A stretch of DNA of 64,000 nt from a phage. Shown here piece after piece: positions 63 through 54,523 of the stretch. The notes beneath the pieces were generated by a model that saw only the letters and a list, made by a program, of their open reading frames with translations, made no database searches and was not told the origin of the DNA. Position 1 is the stretch's first letter, and each line of letters begins with the position of its first letter. The stretch lies in the NCBI GenBank assembly GCA_033286805.1, contig GCA_033286805.1_4727.1. The stretch is one strand, 5' to 3'. The position numbers and the translations under genes are program-made.

Positions 63-602
63 TTACTGTGTGTTCTTAGCTTCACGAATGAAAATAACAT
101 CAGGATATTCTTGGGATTCAATGAATTCAGGATTACGATAACGACGAATATGACGCATCGTTGTACAAGCAAGTTTGTAAAGATGTTCCTCCTCACGTTG
201 TGTTAATAACATCAGTTGCGCGTCTGGAATCACGAATGGGAGTCTTTCATTCACGTATTCCCGAAGGTCATCGAGATCATCGTGATGAATGCCCTCTGAG
301 AGCTTATATAACGCTTCCAGCAATTCTAATCCACCGAACTGGTAACTTCCTATTGTCGTCGTAAACAATGCGCCAGAACGCGTGGTGGATGCTCTATCGG
401 CGACATCGTATTGTTCTAACATATATCCGTAGACCATGCTACGTCGATCCAGTGTATCCGTAACGAGATTACGCCACCGTTCCAGTCTTTCGAGTGCTTT
501 GTCGATAGAGTAAACGATCATGCCATGTTCATCCAACTCTTCCGCAATACCCAATAGTTCATTGTTGTTAGGTTTTGCTGCACCGATAAGAAAAACACTC
601 AT
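63..602 (-). CDS. hypothetical protein (179 aa)
   Basis: Long ORF in six-frame track; no motif recognised. Confidence 0.5.
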   Translation of the reverse strand: MSVFLIGAAKPNNNELLGIAEELDEHGMIVYSIDKALERLERWRNLVTDTLDRRSMVYGYMLEQYDVADRASTTRSGALFTTTIGSYQFGGLELLEALYKLSEGIHHDDLDDLREYVNERLPFVIPDAQLMLLTQREEEHLYKLACTTMRHIRRYRNPEFIESQEYPDVIFIREAKNTQ

Positions 603-1015
603 TACTCAAACTCCTTATTCCAAAACTCGATTAATGAATCGAGCTGTTCCTTACTGGTTATCTCACCTCCCCTAACAAAATGAAATCGTTCTTGAATGGC
701 GATCTTTTCAAGGATGTCGGTAAGCAAATGACGGTGACAGAAATTTCCTGCAGGACAATAACACCCTAACACCACAACCGGATGGGAGAATAAAGCCAAC
801 CATTCCGATGTATGATCAACAAAGCTTTTGCGCATAAGCGTGTAGTAGCCTGCGGTATATTCATCCTCGGTTAACGTTTTTGATTTGATTCCTGTAACAA
901 GTTCCCATGAAGGTGCGAAGAGCGGGTTACCTGTTTTCACCGTCGTGTCCAGTAGGAACGCTCGTGTGTCTGAAAGCCAACGATGTTTGGCTAATTGAAG
1001 GGTGTATAAAAACAC
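602..1015 (-). CDS. hypothetical protein, possible DUF488-like (C-x-x-P-x-x-x-x-CHR-x-LL motif)
   Basis: Motif LGCYCPAGNFCHRHLL resembles the conserved CHR motif recalled for DUF488 proteins; weak. Confidence 0.35.
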   Translation of the reverse strand: MFLYTLQLAKHRWLSDTRAFLLDTTVKTGNPLFAPSWELVTGIKSKTLTEDEYTAGYYTLMRKSFVDHTSEWLALFSHPVVVLGCYCPAGNFCHRHLLTDILEKIAIQERFHFVRGGEITSKEQLDSLIEFWNKEFE

Positions 1016-1034
1016 AGCGCTAACCCCAAAGGAT

Positions 1035-1090
1035 AAAAATAAAACCTTGACATAACCACCACCGCAACCCCATACAGGGCTACGGTGGGG
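1035..1090 (-). terminator. Putative intrinsic terminator after gene 1119..1598 (stem CCACCG/CGGTGG region followed by a T-rich tract on the minus strand)
   Basis: Hairpin plus GTTTTATTTTTATCC on the minus strand immediately downstream of the stop. Confidence 0.4.
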
Positions 1091-1118
1091 TCATACAGAG
1101 AGACGTGTTAGGTTACAA

Positions 1119-1598
1119 TCAGTCTTTCAGCAGCTCAGCTGCATACGCACTGATGTTGTCGCGAATATGCTTAACCTGAGTTGTTGGGAAAGATTTCTTA
1201 TACGCGGTGGTCAGGCGTCCGTAAACCTGTTTCTTCTCGTTAGAGCCGAAACCAACTTCAGCGCTACGTTGAACCGTTGCAGACACAACGTCTTTGCCCA
1301 GCGGCAGGGTTACAGAAACAACGTCAACCTGTTTGTTATCCGCCATGAACTGCGCGCCAACGCGGCCAACCGCCAGACCGTGAGCCAGACCGATATCGGT
1401 GGTCAGTTTCTGTGCTTTTTCCAGGATTTCTTTTTCTTCCGGCGTTACCAGAGTACCCAGGAAATCACTGCCTAACTTCTGGCTACCAGATTCGTCCAGT
1501 TTAATACCAGCGGCGATTTTATCAGAAAGAGCCTGAACTTCCGGACGTACGTTAGAAGTGGTTTCAGTCGCTACGGTGGTTTCTACAGCTTCAGACAT
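1119..1598 (-). CDS. hypothetical protein (159 aa), strongly host-optimised codons, probably highly expressed
   Basis: Complete ORF; codon choice dominated by CTG/CCG/GGT/CGT/GAA/AAA; promoter-like motif upstream and terminator downstream. Confidence 0.6.
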   Translation of the reverse strand: MSEAVETTVATETTSNVRPEVQALSDKIAAGIKLDESGSQKLGSDFLGTLVTPEEKEILEKAQKLTTDIGLAHGLAVGRVGAQFMADNKQVDVVSVTLPLGKDVVSATVQRSAEVGFGSNEKKQVYGRLTTAYKKSFPTTQVKHIRDNISAYAAELLKD

Positions 1599-1710
1599 GT
1601 TAATACTCCAATTAGTTTTTTCGATCGATCAAAAGGATAAAATCAGAAGATTCTTTCTTCATAGGGAAAACACAAGTCGGTTAAGGTTTACTTCTTAAAC
1701 TCCTTGCGTT

Positions 1711-1733
1711 CTATCAGTTAGGTAATATAGACC
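1711..1733 (-). promoter_or_regulatory. Promoter-like conserved motif, copy 1 (plus-strand text ctatcagttaggtaatatagacc)
   Basis: One of four copies of GGTAATATAG with conserved flanks, each 25-115 nt upstream of a minus-strand gene start. Confidence 0.4.
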
Positions 1734-2534
1734 TCAACTTTTTTCCAATAATGCCGCAACGTTCCGTGCGAAACGAATTACCTTATAATTGCGGGTCTGT
1801 TTGATATCTTCTTCCCCATCACTGTCACCTTCAGACGGATCTTCCCACATGAAGTCTTGTTCGTCCGCTTTCTGTAAGTAGCGGTATAACTGCACCATGC
1901 TGCGTGCGGTCGGAGAGATAGCGCGAAGCTCATCCAATTCTTCATCAGTCAACAGAACGTGCGGTGAACGCAGTGGTTCCATTGTCGTATTGCACAACAG
2001 ACGAATCAGCAGATCGACACACGGAATAACAGAACCTGGTGAGGCGATTTCTGGGTGTAACGTATAACCCCAATATACGGTGTTAAAATACGTCAAAACA
2101 GCAGGTAGTGACGGATGTTCCATCGCACGGCCAATTTGTTGTCTTACGATAGATGCACGATCGTTCAATACATCGAAAGTAATCTGCTGAGGTTCCATAA
2201 CCGCAAGTGAAATACCGTACGCGTCAGCCACACCCAGGATTTCATGAAGGGCCGAACGTTCTTCTTCGGTGGATATTGTCCCGATTGCCTTACGCCCCGC
2301 AAGGTCAATCAGCATCGGTGAAACAGCTTCTTTAACCGCATTAAAAGAAGCCTGGTAAGCGTGTTTATGAATATACAGTGTCCACGCTAATGCGCGCTCA
2401 GCCGCATGAAGCAGATCGACATAAGACAGTTCTTGATGGCATGGGCCATACACACTCACAGCAAGCTTGGTGGCTTTCTCAGAGGCTTGCATAATAACAT
2501 CTGGTGATTTAGGCATATCGCGTTCTTCTTGCAT
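1734..2534 (-). CDS. hypothetical protein (266 aa)
   Basis: Long ORF; no motif recognised. Confidence 0.5.
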   Translation of the reverse strand: MQEERDMPKSPDVIMQASEKATKLAVSVYGPCHQELSYVDLLHAAERALAWTLYIHKHAYQASFNAVKEAVSPMLIDLAGRKAIGTISTEEERSALHEILGVADAYGISLAVMEPQQITFDVLNDRASIVRQQIGRAMEHPSLPAVLTYFNTVYWGYTLHPEIASPGSVIPCVDLLIRLLCNTTMEPLRSPHVLLTDEELDELRAISPTARSMVQLYRYLQKADEQDFMWEDPSEGDSDGEEDIKQTRNYKVIRFARNVAALLEKS

Positions 2535-2816
2535 CTTTTAAATTCCTACTTAACAATAAAGTTCATATACGGCGTATGTATCCGTAGAATAATGGGTTCT
2601 GGTAAGATCTTACATCAAAATGACGGCATAAAAAGTACCTCCTTACCCACATGGGTAAGGAGGTTCGTCCATCACGACGAAAGGACGTTATGTGACGCGG
2701 TGTCCATAACGGCCCTGGTAGCAGGCATTAAAGATAACAAAAAGGATGTAAGTTGAGCTAAACCACCTAAATACGGTAACGATTACTTCCGTACACAATA
2801 TAACGCAACATCTTTT

Positions 2817-8232: not shown

Positions 8233-8609
8233 ACCGCCTCCCGCTTACGTTCTCACGCAAGAGCAGACTATATCACATCTCGTTTCAAACGGTGCTTCTT
8301 CAGCACCTCAACGAGAGTTCACTTCTTCCCAGCGCATCCAGCGCCATTCTCTTATCCAAGGAGAATGCCTCACTCGAGGGGTACCGGGGGATGAATCCCT
8401 TAGTCGTTGAACCTTTACCTTAGAACGCTTCACAGCGATCCTTAGGTACTTGGCTGCGGATTGTCCTTAAGCTATTATCTGTTTTTATAACCATACCGTC
8501 TTTCTTTTCAGAATCCGTTTTGGTCGATAACAGCGATGGATGTCTTCGCAATTCAGTGAATCTCATCTACATGTCGCCACATAGACGGACCCTGCTATTA
8601 AAAGCGTTA
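8231..8609 (-). ncRNA. Group I intron (ORF-less), approximate boundaries
   Basis: Minus-strand reading gives P-like GAAUUGCGAAG (about 8543-8556), Q AAUCCGCAGCCAAGUACCUAAGG (about 8447-8466), R GGUUCAACGACUAAGGG (8394-8414), S GAUAUAGUCUGC (8267-8276), in canonical order with GACUA/UAGUC P7 pairing; stop codon immediately at the putative 5' splice site. Confidence 0.75.
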
Positions 8610-11600
8610 ATCATCTCTGTCGGCAGCAGGTACTGCAAGTGCCGATGTACTCATTATTGACGAGCTACCATCCGTTTTCTCGTCGTAGGGTTTCGTTTCA
8701 CCGTATACAGACACAATGTTTGCGTTAGGTGCGAGGTAAGCAGAAATACCTACGTCCCCACTATCCTTCGTACCTTCGGATACAACACCAATGTCCGACT
8801 TGTCGTATTCACGATCGCGTGCGCGTCGAAGCGATGTCTTTGAACGACCCCCGATACCGGTCATCGTTGCTTCTTCACCCTGCTTGATATCCAACATCGG
8901 GTTGGTTTCATCGATCACGATGGAAGCGCTGTCGTCGAGAATTTGGTTCCAGACGCTTACCGGACTGATTGAGATTTTCTGGCGATTTCCTTGACTGCTG
9001 TTCTCATTCTGACGAATAGCGCCAACCAGATCCTTATACACCAATTCAGCGAACTTATCGTACGTTTTAAAACGTTGGTAGTTCACATCGTTGGTGTTAG
9101 GTGCCCAGTCATCCAGAAGCAGTTCAACAGCACGCAGTAACAACATGGCGAAATCGGTAGGTTCTCCCATGTTCTGTAGCAACGTACGGCTTACCGGATC
9201 AACGAAAAGACGCTCCATGAGTTCAAGTTCGCGTAAATGACGAACCTTAAGTCCAGCACCATCGACAACGTTAAAATAGATATCTCGATTGTCAAAAGCG
9301 CCGCGAGCGTAACCAATGTAGTTACGGTACTCGTTAAACCCACCCAGCAACAACGTCGTCATGCGATCGTCTTTACTGAAAATCAAACTTTCGTCGTCAA
9401 AGCTCACCGCGAATTCATCGGGTGCTAAACCCATACGAGAACCGCGAGGTACCGTACGATAGTTTGCTTTAAGATGTTCTAATAACGGGGTAAGTCCACC
9501 CAGATAACTTAGAACAACACCGACCGGAATACGTACACCCATGAATTCAAGATCGGCAGCTTCGATCGGCATCTTAGCCGCATTGATACCGAAGAAATCG
9601 GGGAACGTCCCTACAGGTGTTGGTGTTTGTCCTGACTGACAGATATAGAGCTGATTGCGTTTATCGATTGCTAAGAATTCACCCAGCGTGTTACGCGCAA
9701 ACGTCAGGAGCCCTTCGGCTAACTGTTCGTTGAACCGATCTTCCCCGATGAACTCCGGCAATGTTTTTATATCGAGACGTATATCCCAATCAGCAAATTG
9801 GATTTGGGTATAGTTGCGTGCAAGCACAGCGAAGTAATACGGGACTTTGACGGCCGGATCAAAGACGTTACCACGTTTTAACGTGGTTAAGGGTGAGGAC
9901 TTATCGTAATACATCGCCGTAAGTTGACGTGTTAGCCAACGACCGGCGTTATTAACGACGCGCTCTGAACGTTTAACAAACACCTTACCGTAGGCGGTAC
10001 TCAACGCAACTTCGGATGACGACACCTTTCTGATAGGTTTATCGACGCGTTGTTTACGCATCCGGTACTTGATGCCGTTAACGACATAAATGCCATCCTT
10101 ACGAACCTTCGGCAACATCACCGGGAACGTGGTTGGGACACCGCCTACAGGAGCCAGTTTAATCGTGATGACTTGATAATCCCCCATCACGTCAACAACG
10201 TCTTCGACTTTATAACCCGTAACAGGGTAACCTGCTTGCTGCACCGCAACAACGGCAGCTGCGATGTCCTTTTGCATCACGTGTTCAACGTAATGTTTAT
10301 CCCACACCGCAAGCGTCGATTTACATAGGCTCTTATCGACGATAACATCCGCTTCCGGCATAACCTTTGCTGGCGCTAATTTCGCGGCTTTTGGTTTAAC
10401 TTCAACATACTCAGCAAGTGTTAATCCAGAACCGTCGGGTGCTTCGATTTCGTGGATAGCGTCAGCATTACGCATCGCTGCTTTATATTGAACGCCGCTT
10501 AACTGACCCGCATCCGCCAGATCGCTCGCGCGCACCAACACCGCATCTGATAACGACTGAATATATTCACCGTGCGTTTTTGGTAACGTTGCCGCGTCAA
10601 AGACATCAACCTTTTCTTCTTCGGTATTGTCGGTAACGACTTCGAAGAGATCGTCAGTAATGTCCTGATCTTCATCGGGTTGGAAATCTGGTTGTACTTC
10701 TACCCCGGGTACTTCACGGACATCTTCGAACGAGCGTTCTACAATGGCGTTCCACGCATCAGCGTCATCGTCTTCATCCGACCCACCAACCAACTCCGCT
10801 TCTAACTCATCGGGATCAAGAACAGTGGCCAGATCCTCACCGTTAGGAAGCACGACGTCGCGATCATCGTACTCCGCATCCGGGCTGTCCGCAAGAATAT
10901 CTCGCTCTTGACGAAGAACCTGTTCCTCTTCTTGTTTCTGTTCTTCTTCATTCGCGCTCTGCGACCACAGACGTGTTACCGCCATCATCCAACGACGCTG
11001 GAAGGTTTCAAGTGTCGTTTTATCGAGTTCTTCCCCTTCCTTAACAAGCCCGGTACGCCATTCCTCCAGTAGACCAAGATTCAACGTAAAGAAGTACACA
11101 CCGTCTGTAAATACAACGTTAAGCTTATCCAGTGTGGCTCTGTCTAACGAAGCCATCGTGCTGTTCTCACGATCGGTTCCCAACCAGCGGAAGAAGTCAA
11201 AGAACGATAGCTCCTCCGGCGTGGCGAAATTCATGAGGTTGTTACGGGTCGGTGCCTGTTGCGTGGTACGCATCAACGAAATCTTCGGCAATGTTGACGG
11301 TATACGGAACAACAGAAAGTGTTGACGATCGCTTTGCTGTGCGATTTCGTTGGCTTTCGACCAAATTGTTTTACGCACGTTGAACCATTCATCATACCAA
11401 CGGGTGAGCGTTGGACGATAAATGTACATGTGGTTAAGATGCGCGTAGTTAGCAACGATCTGAGCGTTGATGTTTTTCTCCACCGCGCTCAGATCGGTAA
11501 CCAAACGAAAACGACGATGTGACGCACGATAATCCAATTTCGCTCGTGGGAGTTGGAATCGTTGATCACGTCGAGGTGCGCCCTGTTTGGTTGCGAGATC

Positions 11601-11816: not shown

Positions 11817-12494
11817 GGGTTAGGCTCCACGAGGTCCCGTTAAGTTGCGTAATAGGAACGCAACCGTATCGTAACCAATATCGATGTTGAATTTATTTTT
11901 ACCACTTACCCAGAAAGCTCGCTTCTTGTGCGAGTTGGTAATTTCGTCAATAGCTTCCATGGAATAAAGAACGTTAACCGAGACCGTATCACCGTCGAAC
12001 CTTGTCTTCGCCTCAGTTCGCTACGCTGAGACCGCCTGCATGGATACGTACATCACAGGCTGCTTGCACTTTCATGCAAGAGGAGACTATATCAAACCGG
12101 CAGCACAACCTGCTACGGTAACCTACACTTCGAAGACGCTTGTCCTCTACAGGGTGGTAAATCCCTTAGTCGTTGAACCTGCGTTGTTTCACATTCTTGC
12201 AAACAAGAATGCCGTATTACTACGCAACAACCAGGCTGCTGATCGCCCATTGTTTCGCACCTTAGCACCGCTTACGCGGCTTTTCTTTCAGCCTAAGCCT
12301 CTTACGGAGGTAGTGCATCTCAACTGTTGTTTCTGCCTTTCGGCACCTCATGGGTCGTTGAGCTTTAGGGGTTCCCAGCAATTCGTAGGTTTTTCAAGCA
12401 CTCTCTTTCGAGAATACCGGACCAATTCAGTTAGTAAACAACATTATTACCATCCCCCATTCTCAAGGGTTAATTTTTTAAAATGATAGAATTA
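11814..12494 (-). ncRNA. Group I intron (ORF-less, about 680 nt), approximate boundaries
   Basis: Minus-strand P-like AAUUGCUGGGAACC (about 12370-12386), Q AUCAGCAGCC (about 12231-12250), R GGUUCAACGACUAAGGG (12160-12180, identical 21-mer to the other intron), S GAUAUAGUCUC (12085-12094). Confidence 0.7.
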
Positions 12495-24292: not shown

Positions 24293-24850
24293 TTAAACTT
24301 CTTCGTTTTCTGAACCTAATGATTCAGCATCTGGATCGTCAACAGGAATTGTTGCATCAAAATACCGTTTCGTATGCGTGGTTGTATATCCTACGCTATC
24401 TGTGATGGAAATCGTAAACGTGACTTCCCTTGCACGGATTAAGCGTAGTTTATTCATGAAGTTACGGAACGGCATCGATCCCCGATTCAACTCCTTAATG
24501 ACGTTTCCCCGAATACTGGAAATGTCTTTATTCGTTTTATCAGGGTGTCGTTTCTTCACATCACGCATATGTCGGGTAATATACGAATTGAGCTGATTTG
24601 CGCCGATCCCTCTCTCCGTATAAATCTGCAACAGGAACTCCGTAAGGAAATCCTGTCTGCCCGTAGGCGTCCAGAAGTTGTTACCGTGGTTATAGTTAGT
24701 CGCTCGTCCTCGATTACTTTGAGGATTTTCATCATCGCTTTCGTCACGACGCTTAAGCGGATTAATGCGTGCGCGAAAAGAGACTTCGTTATATTTATCG
24801 ATCATATTACACCAGTGTATTGACTGAGTGCGAAGGTTAGGAGTTCGCAA
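24293..24850 (-). CDS. hypothetical protein (185 aa)
   Basis: ORF; overlaps the upstream ORF, so the true start is probably internal. Confidence 0.45.
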   Translation of the reverse strand: MRTPNLRTQSIHWCNMIDKYNEVSFRARINPLKRRDESDDENPQSNRGRATNYNHGNNFWTPTGRQDFLTEFLLQIYTERGIGANQLNSYITRHMRDVKKRHPDKTNKDISSIRGNVIKELNRGSMPFRNFMNKLRLIRAREVTFTISITDSVGYTTTHTKRYFDATIPVDDPDAESLGSENEEV

Positions 24851-25317
24851 CAGTCTCTCGCTAGTTTCCTTGTTTTGCGTAATCCATAAGCCGCATCCAA
24901 ATCGTCACGTTCCGCCAGCGCGTCTAACCACGTCGCAAGTATGCGTCCATACTCGATAACGTCACGCATGAGAACGTCGAACTGGATAACACGACCATCG
25001 GCATCAGCAAGCCAACGATTGAATGTGATTTGTGGTGCTAGTATTGCATATGTTCTCTCCTCTAATGCGATTATGTTTATGTTGCCTTCGTTATCGAACG
25101 CTTGATGCCAACGGCGAAGGTCAAGCATCAACGACTCAGCGTCCATATACCACAACGGTAAATACGTTTTACGTGCAACGCGTATATCGTAGATGTTGTG
25201 AACCCAGGACGTTGTTTTGTAAAGCAACAAGAGTTCGTTTAACCGTTGCCTATCATCTTGAAACGTCTTCCTTTTATAACGTTGGAACGCACGCCTCAAG
25301 AAAAAGCGATGTAACAT
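24802..25317 (-). CDS. hypothetical protein (171 aa)
   Basis: ORF with promoter-like motif about 85 nt upstream. Confidence 0.5.
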   Translation of the reverse strand: MLHRFFLRRAFQRYKRKTFQDDRQRLNELLLLYKTTSWVHNIYDIRVARKTYLPLWYMDAESLMLDLRRWHQAFDNEGNINIIALEERTYAILAPQITFNRWLADADGRVIQFDVLMRDVIEYGRILATWLDALAERDDLDAAYGLRKTRKLARDCCELLTFALSQYTGVI

Positions 25318-25401
25318 GGCATCACCTATGTATCATTCTTGCAGGCATCAATGAAGCCATCACAAGAAGGTAACGTTATACGTCGCCTTCATGACTGTCA
25401 T

Positions 25402-25420
25402 CATGAAGGTAATATAGTCC
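25402..25420 (-). promoter_or_regulatory. Promoter-like conserved motif, copy 2 (catgaaggtaatatagtcc) in a divergent intergenic region
   Basis: Shares GGTAATATAGTC with the copies at 1711, 38520 and 51230. Confidence 0.4.
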
Positions 25421-37840: not shown

Positions 37841-38497
37841 TTAGCTTGCAGCTTCTTCATTTGTATCAGGTTTGCTTCCCCCTAACAAACCGTCAAACAG
37901 ACCCGTATGTTTCAGGTAGAAGAGAGCGATAGCGCCCATTGCTGCTGCGCTCGTCGCCGTTAACGCAACCCCAGCACGATACTGCCATTTACGGTCAGGC
38001 TTTTGATCAAGAGCCATACGACGCATGTATTCAGCCTCTGCTTCATTCCGATGAATTTCGGATTCAGCCAAGCGGGCTAAGGTATCGCGGTCAAGGTTAT
38101 CATAACGTACGTTCATGGTGGTTTCCTCTTGTTTGGAAGTTGATTGCTTAGTGGATTCTTGGTCAACAGTCGTTTCAGATGGTTCAAACGGCTGGTTGTT
38201 CATTTTCTGATCTTTATTGGTCATGATAGACTCCTTCGATTTTTGAGATGAAATTGATTTAAACCATCGTGGATGGCGGTATTCAGTTTTACATGTGCAG
38301 TTAAGTTTCTCGTGCAGGAAAGCGTAAAAACGTTTTGCGCCTACACGTAAGGCTTTCAGCATTACCCATCCACGAGCACTCAAACGGTGTAGCTGTTGCG
38401 GTATGTCTAGTTTCCTAGCCAAGCGAAAGTATCTTTCAATCACTTCGATAGGAAACCATTGTTGTTCCACATCGGTGAGACTGAAAGTCTTATCCAT
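37841..38497 (-). CDS. hypothetical protein with C-terminal transmembrane helix (possibly two genes, internal start near 38224)
   Basis: Internal ATG at 38224 preceded by AAGGAG; C-terminal hydrophobic GVALTATSAAAMGAIALFYL. Confidence 0.45.
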   Translation of the reverse strand: MDKTFSLTDVEQQWFPIEVIERYFRLARKLDIPQQLHRLSARGWVMLKALRVGAKRFYAFLHEKLNCTCKTEYRHPRWFKSISSQKSKESIMTNKDQKMNNQPFEPSETTVDQESTKQSTSKQEETTMNVRYDNLDRDTLARLAESEIHRNEAEAEYMRRMALDQKPDRKWQYRAGVALTATSAAAMGAIALFYLKHTGLFDGLLGGSKPDTNEEAAS

Positions 38498-38519: not shown

Positions 38520-38541
38520 TTCACTTAAGTAATATAGCCGT
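38520..38541 (-). promoter_or_regulatory. Promoter-like conserved motif, copy 3 (tcacttaagtaatatagccgtg)
   Basis: Near-identical over about 24 nt to copy 4 at 51230; 23 nt upstream of the minus gene start at 38497. Confidence 0.45.
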
Positions 38542-50080: not shown

Positions 50081-50425
50081 TTAACTCCCTCTGTGGTGCG
50101 AAAACAAAACATCTAACTGTTCCCGTTGTTCTTTTAAGCATGCAGGAAGCTGGTCTTCCCGTACCGTTCCGATTTCCAACGTGATGTACCAACGTTGTTC
50201 TGAGGCCTGCCATTGAAAACTGCTCTGTAACCGCAGGATGTTAGGATCACGTACCTTGTTTGCACTGTAACGGTTGAACCAATCCAGGTATTCTGCTTTC
50301 CCTTCCTCGTCGGCAACGTAACGCTGCACGCTGTTCTTCCCTTTGTTCTCGTATCCCGTTGCACGTATCATGCGAACGTTTCTCCTGTAATGTGTTGTGG
50401 GCGTTGTAGCATGGTAACATCCCAT
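50081..50425 (-). CDS. hypothetical protein (about 100-114 aa)
   Basis: ORF; overlaps the upstream gene, start uncertain. Confidence 0.4.
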   Translation of the reverse strand: MGCYHATTPTTHYRRNVRMIRATGYENKGKNSVQRYVADEEGKAEYLDWFNRYSANKVRDPNILRLQSSFQWQASEQRWYITLEIGTVREDQLPACLKEQREQLDVLFSHHRGS

Positions 50426-51150
50426 TGTACGATCCGGCTCCGGCTTACCAGCATCATGACGGATTCATCATCAAGCCCTGGTTGCGCAACCGGCAACCAA
50501 CGTTCGTTAAGCACCTTCGCTTCAACGCGTTTCTTGCGGGGATTGTAACGCACCTCGCTGACCCAAGCGAATCCAAGCGGATGCACAACCCGTGGATAAT
50601 ACATGCGAAGCAATTGATGCATTTGATCCATTGCCTCCAAGCTCGCATCCGCCAGGTAAGGTTTCACCATGGCAAGCTTTTTGGTGTAATACGTTCCAAC
50701 GGTATGGTTCGCCCACCCAGGAAGCGCGTGATGGAATCCTACCTGTAATTGTGTATTGCCGTTCACCTTCAGCCAACCGTATTGTCCCGCCGCACGTCCC
50801 TCGTCAGTATCGATCCATGTAAGTATATCGATGAACGCACGATCGGCGATCTCGATGCGTTCCACCCGTTCATCCAACGCACCACGTACCACGAATCCGC
50901 TCGCGCTCAGCCGTGCAGGATGCTGGCTACGATGTGCGTACCAATTCTTGTTGCCGGTAAGCAGGTAAGGATACAAGTGCGCACCACGCCAAACAACCTT
51001 TCCGTTCGTCCCGTCGACGCAACGTACACGCATCCCAGCCTGACCGCTGCTGTAGCATGCTACCCTCACGCATTCGTTTTGAACATCGCTCGGTAACGCC
51101 AGGTATTCATCTCCAGTAAACATGGTATCAAAAATCAATGCTTCTTTCAT
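50368..51150 (-). CDS. hypothetical protein (260 aa), first gene of the minus-strand operon
   Basis: Long ORF directly downstream of the large non-coding region and promoter-like motif copy 4. Confidence 0.5.
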   Translation of the reverse strand: MKEALIFDTMFTGDEYLALPSDVQNECVRVACYSSGQAGMRVRCVDGTNGKVVWRGAHLYPYLLTGNKNWYAHRSQHPARLSASGFVVRGALDERVERIEIADRAFIDILTWIDTDEGRAAGQYGWLKVNGNTQLQVGFHHALPGWANHTVGTYYTKKLAMVKPYLADASLEAMDQMHQLLRMYYPRVVHPLGFAWVSEVRYNPRKKRVEAKVLNERWLPVAQPGLDDESVMMLVSRSRIVQWDVTMLQRPQHITGETFA

Positions 51151-51229: not shown

Positions 51230-51257
51230 CTATCACTTAGGTAATATAGTCGTGAAA
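51230..51257 (-). promoter_or_regulatory. Promoter-like conserved motif, copy 4 (ctatcacttaggtaatatagtcgtgaaa)
   Basis: About 80 nt upstream of the start at 51150; shares extended identity with copy 3. Confidence 0.45.
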
Positions 51258-52011: not shown

Positions 52012-52905
52012 TTAATCAGCGACGTTATAACCGAATACTGCTTTACCGTAGGTGTGAGTACCGTTAGCTAACGACAGCACCAGCACATGGTTGTACGTAG
52101 CGTTAACGCCCTTGTCAGTAGACTCGGTGGTAGCACCGTTATAGACAAAGGTAGCCGTTTGCAGATTGGCTTTCAGTTCATTGATGATATCATCACTTAC
52201 GCCGGTCTGCTCTTTGATCAGGGTGGTCAGGTTACCTGCTAAGCTTGCATCGATATTTACTTCGTTGCCAGTAATAGCTTGTAAACCTGGAGCGTAAGTA
52301 CTGAAGTCTAACGGATAGGTTAACAGACGTGCTGACGTTTTGGTACCATCGCCTTCATCAACGTAGGTTAAGTTACCCAGGTTGGTAACCTTGATGATGT
52401 TAGCCAGATCCAGCGTGGTGTTATAAACTTTAACTTGAACAGAGCCATACCACGCCAACGAATCTTCTTTGGCTTCCAGGGTGATCGTCTGGATACCTGA
52501 CTGATCAAAGGTAACCTGAGTAGCTAACGTTTCGGCTTTGATGTCTTTCGTTTTATCCAGGAACTTCTCACCGGAAGGCGTGATCATACCGTAGCGTTGA
52601 GCTACAAGGTCAACCACATCACCGATGGTGGTGTTCGCCTCAACGTTAACACGTACAGCGATCTTCTGGAACCACTTAGCCAGATCCAGACGATGGTAGG
52701 TGACATCGCGGTTATTGAAGTAAGGGGTACCTTCACCAGGACTAAGTGTTAAAGTTGCTTCTGGAGCAGAAGGATTCTTTTCTTTAAGGACGTATTTAAG
52801 GTCGGTGTATTTAAAGTTGGCACCAGTGTCGGCGTTGAGCTGGTTAATCTCATCAACGATAAGTTGCCAAGGTGTTTTTAAAGTAAGCGATACTTGAGCT
52901 GTCAT
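52012..52905 (-). CDS. hypothetical protein (297 aa), paralogous to 53048..53590; possibly virion-associated
   Basis: Shared segments with the neighbouring gene (TYHRLDLAKWF ~ YYDRLALSEVF; LAWYGSVQVKV ~ LVYTGTLQVAL). Confidence 0.55.
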   Translation of the reverse strand: MTAQVSLTLKTPWQLIVDEINQLNADTGANFKYTDLKYVLKEKNPSAPEATLTLSPGEGTPYFNNRDVTYHRLDLAKWFQKIAVRVNVEANTTIGDVVDLVAQRYGMITPSGEKFLDKTKDIKAETLATQVTFDQSGIQTITLEAKEDSLAWYGSVQVKVYNTTLDLANIIKVTNLGNLTYVDEGDGTKTSARLLTYPLDFSTYAPGLQAITGNEVNIDASLAGNLTTLIKEQTGVSDDIINELKANLQTATFVYNGATTESTDKGVNATYNHVLVLSLANGTHTYGKAVFGYNVAD

Positions 52906-53047
52906 TTTCTACCTCTATGGTTGTTACATCACTCTCAAAAGATGTAAGTGTTTACAGAAATAAGTATATTTTATATTAAATGTGAATAATATGGAGAACG
53001 ACTCCGAATCTCCTTTTCGACCATCAAAAATCAGAGGACACACAATC

Positions 53048-53590
53048 ATGGCCTTAGACTTTAACAAAGCAGCGAAATCCCTTCTGCTTGATCTTATCAA
53101 CACCAAAGCAACCCGTGCACTGGCCGAACAAGAACTGCAGTTCGGTACCCCGGGGGCATCTTCCGAACATGAAAAGAACACCGTTATTCAGCTGGACGCT
53201 GCGCCTGAAGCAGAAAACCTGCAGGGTAGTCAGCAGTTCTACTACGATCGTCTGGCTCTGTCCGAAGTTTTCGCTGATGTAACCGGCGACGTTACTTTCG
53301 AACTGCCGCACGGTACCGACAGCATCCAGGCTTCTGAACTGGTAAGCAAGCTGGTCACCAAATTCGGCCTGGCTTCCCTGAACGGTGAAATCAAAGAAGA
53401 AACCTTCCAGCTGTCTGCTGGTACTGTTGGTCAGGTAACTCTGAGTGCGATCGATAATGGTCTGGTATATACCGGCACTCTGCAGGTTGCTCTGACCTAT
53501 GCAGCAGCACCGAAAGACCAACTGGCAACTGTTCTGGCGGATAACGTAGCTGATGGCTTCGTGAAACCGACCGTTAGCGTTGTTGGCTAA
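53048..53590 (+). CDS. hypothetical protein (about 181 aa), strongly host-optimised codons, paralogue of 52012..52905
   Basis: Start placed at ATG 53048 after GAGGA RBS (ORF opens at 52982); codon choice almost exclusively CTG/CCG/GGT/ACC/GAA. Confidence 0.6.
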   Translation: MALDFNKAAKSLLLDLINTKATRALAEQELQFGTPGASSEHEKNTVIQLDAAPEAENLQGSQQFYYDRLALSEVFADVTGDVTFELPHGTDSIQASELVSKLVTKFGLASLNGEIKEETFQLSAGTVGQVTLSAIDNGLVYTGTLQVALTYAAAPKDQLATVLADNVADGFVKPTVSVVG

Positions 53591-53887: not shown

Positions 53888-54523
53888 TTATTCAACACTG
53901 AAACCGTTCAAACAGATAGCTTCGTAACGCTTACGTTCACGACGTTTACGCGCCTGCCAACCGTAAATGAACTTCTCGTCTTTCTCACGACGTTCAGCTA
54001 ATTCGATGTAATAGGTGCTCTGCATGTCCAGCATCGCATCGATGAGATAATCCTTACCAGTTGCGCCACGCTTAGCGATGTAGGCATCAAGAGCTGCCAG
54101 TGATTTGGGACCCATTGCACCATCAGCATCAATATCTTTCCAGTAAGTTTGACGGTTGTTCATGACGTTCAGGTAACGCTGAAGGTTCTTAACCGCAACC
54201 GTTTTACCTGCATTGATACCCAGGTCAAAGAGACGGTCAGCCAAGAACACAGAACGTTTCATGACTTCGTCAAGCTTCATCTTATCCCAGAAGTGGGTCT
54301 TGTAGATAAAGAACGCCATTTCCGTGGTAAGGTTACGCATGTTACCGTCCCACCCGAATTTCGTTTTCAGCGTGGTTTTGTACTGATCCGCAAGCGCTTT
54401 CGTAATGCCGTGGTTTGTACATTTTCCGCTGTCGTCTGGGTCATCAACATACCCGCCTTCAACATCGGTTTTGTCGCGAATGATGAATTCGCAGGTAAAA
54501 TCTTTTTCAGTAATCTTAGCCAT
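53888..54523 (-). CDS. Endolysin, GH108-type N-acetylmuramidase with peptidoglycan-binding region
   Basis: N-terminal EGGYVDDPDDSGKCTNHGIT matches the GH108 signature E-GGY...D.GG.T..GIT; length and C-terminal basic region fit a PG-binding module. Confidence 0.7.
   Translation of the reverse strand: MAKITEKDFTCEFIIRDKTDVEGGYVDDPDDSGKCTNHGITKALADQYKTTLKTKFGWDGNMRNLTTEMAFFIYKTHFWDKMKLDEVMKRSVFLADRLFDLGINAGKTVAVKNLQRYLNVMNNRQTYWKDIDADGAMGPKSLAALDAYIAKRGATGKDYLIDAMLDMQSTYYIELAERREKDEKFIYGWQARKRRERKRYEAICLNGFSVE

What the first reader, a model, noticed from the sequence alone, without database searches (positions are those of the whole stretch)
1119..1598. Monocistronic, codon-optimised gene bracketed by promoter-like motif and terminator
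The 159-aa ORF uses almost exclusively host-preferred codons (CTG, CCG, GGT, CGT, GAA, AAA), unlike most neighbours, and has promoter-like motif copy 1 upstream and a hairpin plus T-tract downstream. This is the signature of a very abundant protein of unknown function, for example an early nucleoid or takeover protein or an abundant virion component.
Basis: seen in the sequence. Interest (0 to 1): 0.45.

Follow-up and report, generated by a model that had tools for sequence, protein, structure and literature searches.

The report
Highly expressed early jumbo-phage gene
This is a small gene of a Goslar-like nucleus-forming jumbo phage, built for very high early expression, whose function is unknown; published data find the identical Goslar protein in high copy in purified phage preparations, and its phiKZ relative is needed for infection.

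Summary
Window 1119-1598 (minus strand) is a real 159-aa gene, identical in protein sequence to gp214 of Escherichia phage Goslar. It has the strongest E. coli-type codon bias of about 60 ORFs in the window and exceeds the nuclear shell gene chmA. A 17-nt motif (CTATATTACCTAACTGA) lies 116 nt upstream. It occurs four times in the window and also upstream of Goslar chmA, so it is most likely the early promoter read by the injected virion RNA polymerase. A 24-bp hairpin followed by a U-tract lies downstream. The interpretation (a very abundant protein, early or virion) is supported by published data. Goslar gp214 was measured at about 865 copies per virion-equivalent in purified phage. I also find that it belongs to one family of small proteins, seen so far only in nucleus-forming jumbo phages (Chimalliviridae), together with phiKZ gp186. 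That gene is early, tolerates no transposon insertions, and its knock-down abolishes plaques and lowers ChmA. The fold is confidently predicted but matches no solved structure. No catalytic residues are conserved and the protein is not basic. Best reading: a chimallin-class early cassette for a stoichiometric, non-enzymatic protein needed to establish infection. True packaging into virions is unproven. Most components were already published; the family link and promoter class are new.

The parts
1714..1730 (-). Early-promoter-like motif CTATATTACCTAACTGA (core TATATTAC at 1722-1729), preceded by an A-rich stretch. The expected transcription start lies a few bases downstream of the core.
   Evidence: 4 copies in the window against 0.15 expected. 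The core TATATTAC occurs 7 times against 1.9 expected, all on the minus strand. The same motif lies about 65 nt upstream of Goslar chmA and upstream of gp182. The same core heads many phiKZ operons and lies about 100 nt upstream of the Eowyn orthologue. Review PMC7598289 describes early promoters of the virion RNA polymerase as AT-rich motifs of about 10 nt centred near -10.
1599..1713 (-). 5' untranslated leader of about 115 nt, with the Shine-Dalgarno GGAG at 1606-1609, 7 nt before the ATG. A TATG (phiKZ-type late-promoter core) lies at 1660-1663; its significance is unknown.
   Evidence: Sequence. The 135-nt intergenic region is identical to Goslar, while the ORF differs at 1.9% and the 3' intergenic region at 6.8%. 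It has no significant secondary structure (z = -1.2).
1119..1598 (-). Coding sequence of 159 aa (17.0 kDa, pI 5.75), equal to Goslar gp214 (RefSeq HOV27_gp214) and Goslar_00221 (GenBank). It is a member of the gp214 / phiKZ gp186 family.
   Evidence: 100% amino-acid identity to Goslar. (9 synonymous, 0 non-synonymous differences). (56 representative clusters, 145-170 aa). (AlphaFold2 pLDDT 92).
1048..1097 (-). Terminator-like hairpin with a stem of about 24 bp, including one bulge, and a 4-nt loop.
   Evidence: dG -34 kcal/mol, z = -6.0. Six transitions relative to Goslar are clustered at 1065-1076, and the Goslar version folds equally well (-35.5 kcal/mol, z = -6.4).
1035..1044 (-). U-tract UUUUAUUUUU, 3-4 nt after the base of the hairpin.

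Best explanation
This is a self-contained early expression cassette of a Goslar-like chimallivirus.

How it is expressed: the RNA polymerase injected with the virion most likely starts just downstream of CTATATTACCTAACTGA, the same motif class that precedes the nuclear-shell gene chmA. The roughly 115-nt leader is unstructured and carries a good Shine-Dalgarno sequence. The 159 codons are the most host-optimised in the region. A long hairpin plus U-tract ends the transcript. The result is a very large amount of a 17-kDa protein within minutes of infection.

What the protein is like: it has a disordered Thr/Glu/Ala-rich N-terminal tail of about 17 residues, then a helical layer packed on a three-stranded beta-sheet, then a C-terminal helix. 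The family conserves only glycines, one arginine and hydrophobic positions, and the protein is near-neutral in charge. It therefore most likely acts stoichiometrically, as a building block or adaptor of a large early assembly, and not as an enzyme or DNA binder.

Why it matters: its phiKZ relative gp186 is needed for ChmA accumulation and plaque formation. In Goslar the protein co-purifies with virions in high copy.

Shown here or in print: the gene, the codon bias, the repeated motif and its presence at chmA, the hairpin, family membership, the confident fold model that matches no solved structure, published abundance in Goslar preparations, and published early kinetics and essentiality of phiKZ gp186.

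Inferred: that the motif is the promoter for the virion RNA polymerase, early timing in Goslar itself, transfer of function from gp186, the stoichiometric/assembly role, and the site of action.
For: Expression signals:
- CAI is rank 1 of 60 and higher than chmA. A reference-free PCA also ranks it first.
- The motif is enriched 4 against 0.15 expected, and the same motif precedes Goslar chmA.
- The TATATTAC core lies upstream of the Eowyn orthologue and at the head of the phiKZ gp185-185.1-186 operon.
- Early promoters of these phages are described as conserved AT-rich motifs at -10 (PMC7598289; PMC8244752).
- The hairpin has z = -6 and stays equally stable despite 6 substitutions relative to Goslar.

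Selection and family:
- All 9 differences from Goslar are synonymous.
- 56 clusters of 145-170 aa match over the full length.
- phiKZ gp186 matches the family profile: hmmsearch 1.9e-12 and hhalign probability 96.8%. Foldseek also hits the 134-aa KTN4 protein.
- Local codon bias is also high in the family members: Eowyn rank 1 of 20, RTH11 rank 1 of 14, phiKZ rank 2 of 30.

Published data on phiKZ gp186:
- Control reads are 8790/15976/8898/4327/1698 at 5/10/15/20/30 min, which is early kinetics.
- Two independent antisense oligomers are effective (+++ and ++). Plaques and ChmA are both scored +++.
- It has 0 transposon insertions while its neighbours have thousands of reads.

Protein properties:
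- About 865 copies per virion-equivalent in Goslar.
- No Pfam family and no PDB relative by sequence or fold.
- Only M1 and G127 are invariant, and G78 and R111 nearly so. pI is 5.75.
Against: - No transcription start site or time course exists for Goslar, so promoter identity rests on motif recurrence and analogy.
- The gene sits inside a block of late structural genes on the same strand. No terminator lies between gp213 and the motif, so late read-through is possible.
- The leader (about 115 nt) is longer than the 31-40 nt typical of phiKZ early mRNAs.
- The match to phiKZ gp186 covers only about 87 columns. The C-terminal third diverges, so transfer of function is uncertain.
- The Goslar authors count the protein among high-copy virion-associated proteins, and all 4 such candidates they tested by GFP were truly in virions. 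That favours the virion rival.
- Antisense and transposon phenotypes do not reveal the step affected.
- Nothing here shows what the protein binds.
Confidence: 0.55

Rival explanations
1. It is primarily a genuine high-copy virion protein: inside the capsid, or in the unmodelled peripheral baseplate or fibres. In that case it acts in the particle or after ejection into the next host, and the early-type promoter only adds to late synthesis.
For: About 865 copies per virion in CsCl-purified Goslar, third among the unmodelled proteins of unknown function. All four other high-copy candidates tested by GFP were virion-packaged. The gene lies between the prohead protease and the tail tube/sheath genes, and this position is conserved in Eowyn and RTH11. 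Read-through from gp213 is possible, and a TATG lies in the leader.
Against: The same preparations contain ChmA, ChmC and PhuZ. The authors state that nucleus fragments and PhuZ filaments were captured. gp214 is not seen in any cryo-EM map. phiKZ gp186 mRNA peaks at 10 min and falls 5- to 10-fold by 30 min, while the capsid gene rises. It is not flagged as structural in the phiKZ record, where many others are. Knock-down of newly made gp186 lowers ChmA within the same infection. There is no match to PF12699 or DUF7941. A peptide spanning the candidate protease site ATE|TT is found uncut.
Confidence: 0.25
2. It is a host-takeover or anti-defence protein, made in bulk to titrate a host factor or an immune signal. 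It would be comparable to the abundant early phiKZ gp014 or to sponge proteins.
For: Early promoter class, extreme expression, small size, no catalytic residues, and a published AlphaFold3 homodimer prediction.
Against: The family is conserved across phages of Escherichia, Klebsiella, Erwinia, Xanthomonas, Pseudomonas, Aeromonas, Vibrio and Ralstonia, which suggests a phage-internal partner. It is strictly required in phiKZ in a laboratory host. It pellets or bands with large assemblies. It is not mentioned in the main text of the phiKZ ribosome-association study.
Confidence: 0.1
3. It is a head-assembly scaffold or chaperone, made in excess and mostly removed during maturation, as its position next to the prohead protease might suggest.
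For: Conserved position 1-3 genes downstream of the head maturation protease. Helix-rich, abundant and small. A/S/G-x-E motifs (AVE6, ATE12) lie in the N-terminal tail (sequence; the cleavage rule is recalled from Thomas et al. 2012 and was not checked, because that paper is not held).
Against: Early, not late, promoter class and kinetics. In phiKZ the gene is not near the protease. Knock-down lowers ChmA, an event that precedes head assembly. Coverage of 79% in mature particles argues against removal. The observed peptide starts at A10 after V9, which is not after Glu.
Confidence: 0.07

Closest known systems
Pseudomonas phage phiKZ gp186 (PHIKZ186, NP_803752.1)
   Same: It belongs to the same protein family by profile match (hmmsearch 1.9e-12, hhalign 96.8%) and by fold (KTN4 orthologue). 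It is small, lies downstream of a TATATTAC early promoter and has locally high codon bias. Its function is uncharacterised.
   Different: It is 134 aa rather than 159 aa and more acidic (pI 4.3). The C-terminal third is not alignable. It is the third gene of an operon, not a stand-alone cassette, and it is not next to the prohead protease. It is not annotated as a virion protein. Its essentiality and early kinetics were measured for phiKZ, not for this phage.
The chimallin (chmA) expression cassette of Goslar
   Same: It has the same upstream motif class (TTATATTACCTAGGTGA), comparable extreme codon adaptation (0.61 against 0.65) and the same strand logic. Both proteins appear in virion preparations.
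   Different: The proteins are unrelated (631 aa shell protein against 159 aa). The chmA leader is about 65 nt against about 115 nt. The function of ChmA is known. gp214 is about 7-fold more abundant than ChmA in the purified preparation.
High-copy virion proteins of chimalliviruses (PF12699 'inner body' proteins such as Goslar gp58 and phiKZ gp93; DUF7941 proteins gp22/gp23)
   Same: Present at hundreds to thousands of copies per particle by mass spectrometry, not resolved in cryo-EM maps, and of unknown function. The DUF7941 genes in this window are also codon-optimised.
   Different: No sequence match to either family. A different predicted fold. An early-type promoter. Its phiKZ relative has early, not late, kinetics.
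phiKZ gp014 (abundant early ribosome-binding protein) and JADA (phiKZ gp124 orthologue)
   Same: These are abundant, early chimallivirus proteins identified by the same kinds of screens. JADA is described as essential.
   Different: There is no homology. JADA is 721 aa and always lies downstream of a subunit of the non-virion RNA polymerase. Neither ribosome nor Avs5 association has been reported for gp186 or gp214.

Membership tests
Goslar gp214 / phiKZ gp186 protein family (unnamed; phrog_9746) | Full-length sequence similarity among proteins of about 145-170 aa that share the motifs AAxxLAxGE, MKKNKxLD, GKD, RSxEV, KYG and LKxVR | tested here: met
   100% identity to Goslar gp214. 56 representative clusters at E <= 1e-3, all covering the full length. 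phrog_9746 at 1.1e-9.
Goslar gp214 / phiKZ gp186 protein family (unnamed; phrog_9746) | Inclusion of phiKZ gp186 in the same family | tested here: met
   hmmsearch 1.9e-12 and 43.7 bits in a small targeted database. hhalign probability 96.8%, E = 2e-10 over 87 columns. Foldseek hit to the 134-aa KTN4 protein at E = 7e-5. The C-terminal third is not aligned.
Chimallivirus early promoters (read by the virion RNA polymerase) | A conserved AT-rich motif of about 10 nt that recurs upstream of early operons | tested here: met
   TATATTAC core occurs 7 times against 1.9 expected. The extended 17-mer occurs 4 times against 0.15 expected, and each copy lies 40-132 nt before an ORF. The definition comes from PMC7598289.
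Chimallivirus early promoters (read by the virion RNA polymerase) | Presence upstream of a known early gene of the same phage | tested here: met
   TTATATTACCTAGGTGA lies about 65 nt upstream of Goslar chmA. chmA is described as early-expressed in the Goslar preprint.
Chimallivirus early promoters (read by the virion RNA polymerase) | Transcription start about 10 nt downstream of the motif centre, with early, rifampicin-independent transcription | not testable with these tools
   No Goslar transcriptome was available. Kinetics are known only for phiKZ gp186.
Intrinsic (factor-independent) terminator | A stable G+C-rich hairpin immediately followed by a U-tract | tested here: met
   Stem of about 24 bp, -34 kcal/mol, z = -6, then UUUUAUUUUU 3-4 nt after the stem base. 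The strict scan missed it because of bulges. Whether it terminates the phage polymerases was not tested.
PF12699 inner-body proteins / DUF7941 filament proteins | A match to the Pfam model | tested here: not met
   No Pfam hit for the protein or for any of 55 family members. DUF7941 is detected in other window ORFs with the same tool.
Substrates of the phiKZ-type prohead protease | Cleavage after Glu in S/A/G-x-E motifs in mature virions | tested here: inconclusive
   AVE6 and ATE12 motifs are present. The published peptide ATETTSNVRPEVQALSDK spans ATE|TT uncut and begins after V9. The stored peptide table is truncated, so other N-termini cannot be excluded.
Nucleoid-associated / histone-like DNA-binding proteins | A small, strongly basic protein with a known DNA-binding fold | tested here: not met
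JADA (Avs5 activator, phiKZ gp124 orthologues) | A protein of about 720 aa encoded directly downstream of a subunit of the non-virion RNA polymerase | tested here: not met
   This protein is 159 aa and sits between the prohead protease and the tail genes. JADA is defined in PMC12931631.

The most novel reading that the evidence does not exclude
gp214/gp186 is an unrecognised, nearly universal chimallivirus early structural protein, made in molar excess over chimallin. It would build or line a large transient assembly needed to get from the injected-genome vesicle to a chimallin-enclosed nucleus, and it would also be carried in the particle to prime the next infection. That would make it a missing component of the phage-nucleus pathway with a fold of its own.
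Probability: 0.2. Interest if true: 0.75.

Novelty: new member of a known kind. Interest (0 to 1): 0.5.

Why it matters
Nucleus-forming jumbo phages resist most DNA-targeting defences and are candidates for phage therapy. The steps between genome injection and nucleus formation are poorly understood, and most of their conserved genes have no known function.

This gene combines several notable properties:
- It has the strongest expression signals in the region, above chimallin itself.
- Its promoter is of the early class.
- Family members were found in phages of eight host genera.
- Its predicted fold matches no solved structure.
- Its phiKZ relative is essential.

Two published observations had not been connected: a high-copy 'virion-associated' protein in Goslar, and an essential early gene listed as 'non-core' in phiKZ. 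Linking them yields one testable candidate and suggests that core-genome lists based on sequence searches missed it. The gene, its abundance and the phiKZ phenotype are already in the literature, and no function is shown here.

Tried and rejected
- The BFVD fold search returned only uncharacterised jumbo-phage proteins.
- The afdb50 fold library was unavailable.
- The word-indexed protein search found few relatives and none carried a name.
- tblastn with the Eowyn orthologue found only 'hypothetical protein' annotations.
- A sigma-70 promoter is rejected: the scan finds no site upstream of the gene.
- A structured 5' leader or riboswitch is rejected: z = -1.2 and no Rfam hit.
- A histone-like DNA binder is rejected on charge.
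- JADA (the Avs5 trigger, 'essential early abundant protein') was followed as a lead and rejected. It is the phiKZ gp124 orthologue and is unrelated.
- No mention of gp186 was found in the main text of the phiKZ ribosome-association paper, the interaction-proteomics paper or the early-infection (EPI) vesicle preprint.
- Thomas et al. 2012 and Ceyssens et al. 2014 are not held. The phiKZ virion proteome and temporal class could therefore not be read directly.
- A full-text search for 'TATATTAC' returned only irrelevant papers.
- No paper mentions Goslar 'gp221', the GenBank numbering of this gene.

Full report
IDENTITY OF THE REGION. The window is a close relative of Escherichia phage vB_EcoM_Goslar, a nucleus-forming jumbo phage of the Chimalliviridae. 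Window 1000-1800 is 97.9% identical to Goslar 201215-202015. The ORF at 1119..1598 lies on the minus strand and runs from ATG to TGA, 159 aa. It corresponds to Goslar_00221 in GenBank MK327938 and to HOV27_gp214 / YP_009820905.1 in RefSeq. The protein is 100% identical to Goslar gp214. The two phages differ at 9 of 480 nucleotides in the ORF, and all 9 changes are synonymous. The 135-nt upstream intergenic region is identical. The 103-nt downstream intergenic region has 7 changes. Under no constraint roughly three quarters of random changes would alter the protein, so this is a coding gene under purifying selection.

THE OBSERVATION.
- Codon bias. With Sharp & Li E. coli weights (recalled from memory) the CAI is 0.651. 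The window mean is 0.29 with sd 0.087, so the gene ranks 1 of 60 with z = 4.1. Of 157 informative codons, 71% have w >= 0.7, and only three are rare.
- Check independent of the recalled table. I ran a PCA of relative codon usage over 56 window ORFs. The first axis loads on CTG, CGT, ACC, TCT, GTT, GGT, ATC, CCG, AAC and TTC. This ORF is the most extreme on that axis (z = 2.75).
- Comparison with known abundant Goslar genes. gp214 scores 0.655, chimallin 0.613, tail sheath 0.46, tail tube 0.44 and PhuZ 0.38. The other high scorers in the window are the DUF7941 genes (gp23-like 0.60, gp22-like 0.44), a GH108 endolysin-like gene (0.49) and gp209 (0.43). Three of these products are high-copy in the published virion proteome, so the index tracks abundance in this phage.
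- Upstream motif. CTATATTACCTAACTGA lies at 1714-1730 (-), immediately after the stop codon of gp213 and 116 nt before the ATG. The 17-mer occurs four times in the window, all on the minus strand, against 0.15 expected. Each copy lies 40-132 nt before an ORF. The other three ORFs are orphans with no Pfam or PHROG family. The motif is not sigma-70-like.
- Downstream hairpin. A stem of about 24 bp at about 1048-1097 has dG -34 kcal/mol and z = -6. UUUUAUUUUU follows. The strict scan missed it because of bulges. Six transitions relative to Goslar cluster in the loop and 3' arm, yet both versions fold equally well (-34.3 against -35.5 kcal/mol). This argues for selection on the structure.
'Monocistronic' remains an inference, because nothing would stop read-through from gp213. 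A canonical terminator does lie further upstream, between the protease gene and gp213 (2637-2664).

WHAT THE MOTIF IS. The same motif (TTATATTACCTAGGTGA) lies about 65 nt upstream of the Goslar chimallin gene, and another copy precedes gp182. The six copies share an extended pattern, roughly TTTCACGRC-TATATTAC-YTAAGTGA. In phiKZ the core TATATTAC, preceded by a T/A-rich tract, heads many plus-strand operons. This matches the published description of early promoters of the virion RNA polymerase as conserved AT-rich motifs centred near -10, with a T-rich upstream element (PMC7598289; PMC8244752). The core also lies about 100 nt upstream of the orthologue in Klebsiella phage Eowyn. In phiKZ it heads the gp185-185.1-186 operon. 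I therefore read the motif as the Goslar early promoter. No Goslar transcription start data were available, so this step is inferred. The leader is unstructured (z = -1.2) and carries GGAG 7 nt before the ATG. A TATG, the phiKZ late-promoter core, occurs at 1660-1663. It is too short to interpret.

THE PROTEIN FAMILY.
- The protein has no Pfam family. It gives only a weak PHROG hit to a family of unknown function.
- A full HMMER scan of 1.84 billion representatives found 56 clusters. All are 145-170 aa and match end to end. In the alignment only M1 and G127 are invariant, and G78 and R111 nearly so. The remaining conservation is hydrophobic or glycine.
- A tblastn search and a search of predicted viral structures (BFVD) place members in jumbo phages of Klebsiella, Serratia, Erwinia, Xanthomonas, Pseudomonas, Aeromonas, Vibrio and Ralstonia. 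All are annotated as hypothetical.
- Synteny is conserved. In Goslar, Eowyn and RTH11 the gene lies between the prohead protease block (gp210-gp212) and a DUF488-N3a gene (gp215), ahead of the tail tube and sheath genes. gp213 is not conserved.
- A profile built from the alignment identifies phiKZ gp186 (134 aa) as a member. hmmsearch gives 1.9e-12 and hhalign gives 96.8% probability over 87 columns. Foldseek independently hits the 134-aa protein of the phiKZ-like phage KTN4. The C-terminal third does not align.
- Strong local codon bias recurs in the family members: Eowyn CAI 0.51, rank 1 of 20; RTH11 GC3 0.90, rank 1 of 14; phiKZ gp186 GC3 0.33, rank 2 of 30.

PUBLISHED EXPERIMENTAL DATA.
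- Goslar (Basu et al., bioRxiv 10.64898/2026.04.21.720040). gp214 has 79% coverage, 23 peptides and 5.2% of the molar label-free signal in CsCl-purified virions. That corresponds to about 865 copies per virion (576-1359). It is not visible in any cryo-EM map, and no function could be predicted. The same preparation contains chimallin (about 126), PhuZ (about 170) and ChmC. The authors state that nucleus fragments and PhuZ filaments were co-isolated. gp214 itself was not tested by GFP. The four proteins that were tested were all truly in virions.
- phiKZ antisense screen (Gerovac et al., bioRxiv 10.1101/2024.07.31.605949 and Nature 2025, PMC12571901). gp186 is called an 'early expressed transcript'. 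Two independent antisense oligomers are effective (+++ and ++). Both plaque formation and ChmA level are scored +++. The gene is listed as non-core and uncharacterised. Their control time course gives 8790, 15976, 8898, 4327 and 1698 reads at 5, 10, 15, 20 and 30 min. The major capsid gene rises about six-fold over the same period. The decline of gp186 is lost when chmA is silenced.
- phiKZ transposon mutagenesis (PMC12676376). PHIKZ186 has 0 reads and 0 insertion sites in one dataset and 6 reads in another. The flanking genes gp185 and gp187 have thousands.

SYNTHESIS. The evidence best fits a chimallin-class early cassette. It would be transcribed by the injected polymerase, terminated at its own hairpin and translated very efficiently. 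Its product is a small, probably dimeric protein that acts by mass rather than by catalysis and is required to establish infection. Its high copy number in virion preparations has two possible explanations that I cannot separate. One is real packaging: early synthesis, a stable protein and perhaps late read-through. The other is co-purification of a large gp214-containing assembly. The 7:1 ratio to chimallin argues against simple carry-over as a minor shell accessory. The early, declining mRNA in phiKZ and the lack of a structural annotation there argue against a classical late structural gene.

Rival readings are a virion or ejected protein (0.25), a host-takeover or anti-defence titrator (0.10) and a head scaffold or chaperone (0.07). 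A semi-tryptic peptide starting at A10 hints at trimming of the disordered tail. It does not follow the after-Glu rule of the prohead protease, and the stored peptide table is truncated.

NOVELTY AND SCORE. The gene is annotated. Its abundance in Goslar and the phenotype of phiKZ gp186 are published. New here are four points:
- The two proteins belong to one family found across nucleus-forming jumbo phages of eight host genera, although phiKZ gp186 is listed as 'non-core'.
- The gene carries the same promoter motif as chmA.
- Extreme codon adaptation recurs in the family members examined.
- Its position is conserved inside an otherwise late structural block.

No function is demonstrated. I rate it a new member of a known kind (an early, highly expressed chimallivirus gene of unknown function), with interest 0.5.

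Noticed in passing
window 8244-8611 (-) and 12063-12447 (-): Two group I introns (Rfam RF00028, 55-56 bits, both above the gathering score) lie near the virion RNA polymerase beta gene (Goslar gp207). The second corresponds by position to the Intron_gpI feature that the Goslar RefSeq record annotates just upstream of gp207.
   Followed up: partly
window 2637-2664 (-): A canonical terminator-like hairpin (12-bp stem ACCTCCTTACCC/GGGTAAGGAGGT, then ACTTTTTATG) lies between the prohead protease gene (gp212) and gp213. It separates the protease operon from the gp213-gp214 region.
   Followed up: no
window 1065-1076: Six of the seven differences from Goslar in the 3' intergenic region are transitions packed into 12 nt of the hairpin (CA to TG three times on the transcribed strand). 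They convert Watson-Crick pairs to G-U wobble without loss of stability. The clustering itself is unexplained.
   Followed up: partly
window 2535-2816: Colinearity with Goslar at a fixed offset is lost in the intergenic region between gp213 and the protease gene, which suggests an indel. The exact difference was not mapped.
   Followed up: no
window 25401-25417, 38521-38537, 51233-51249 (all -): Three further copies of the early-promoter-like motif. Each precedes an orphan ORF with no Pfam or PHROG family (24802-25317, 37841-38497, 50368-51150). These are candidate early genes.
   Followed up: partly
window 52012-52905 (-), 52991-53590 (+), 53888-54523 (-): These are the next most codon-optimised genes. 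Two are DUF7941 paralogues, matching the Goslar gp22/gp23 high-copy filament proteins. One is a GH108 + PG_binding_3 endolysin-like gene with unexpectedly high CAI (0.49).
   Followed up: partly
window 602-1015 (-): gp215, the gene downstream of the cassette, matches Pfam DUF488-N3a (1.3e-9). It is conserved next to the gp214 orthologue in Eowyn and RTH11, and the Eowyn copy is labelled phiKZ ORF151-like.
   Followed up: partly
window 1569-1598 (-), protein residues 1-10: The published Goslar peptide table contains a strong semi-tryptic peptide, ATETTSNVRPEVQALSDK, that starts at A10 after V9. This suggests trimming of the disordered N-terminal tail at a site that does not fit the after-Glu rule of the prohead protease.
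   Followed up: partly
whole window: The window starts at about Goslar position 200,215 and is 64 kb long, while the Goslar record is 237,307 bp. gp22/gp23-like genes appear at 52-54 kb. The source genome therefore seems to run across the ends of the Goslar record, meaning a different start point or a circularly permuted assembly. I did not verify this by alignment.
   Followed up: no
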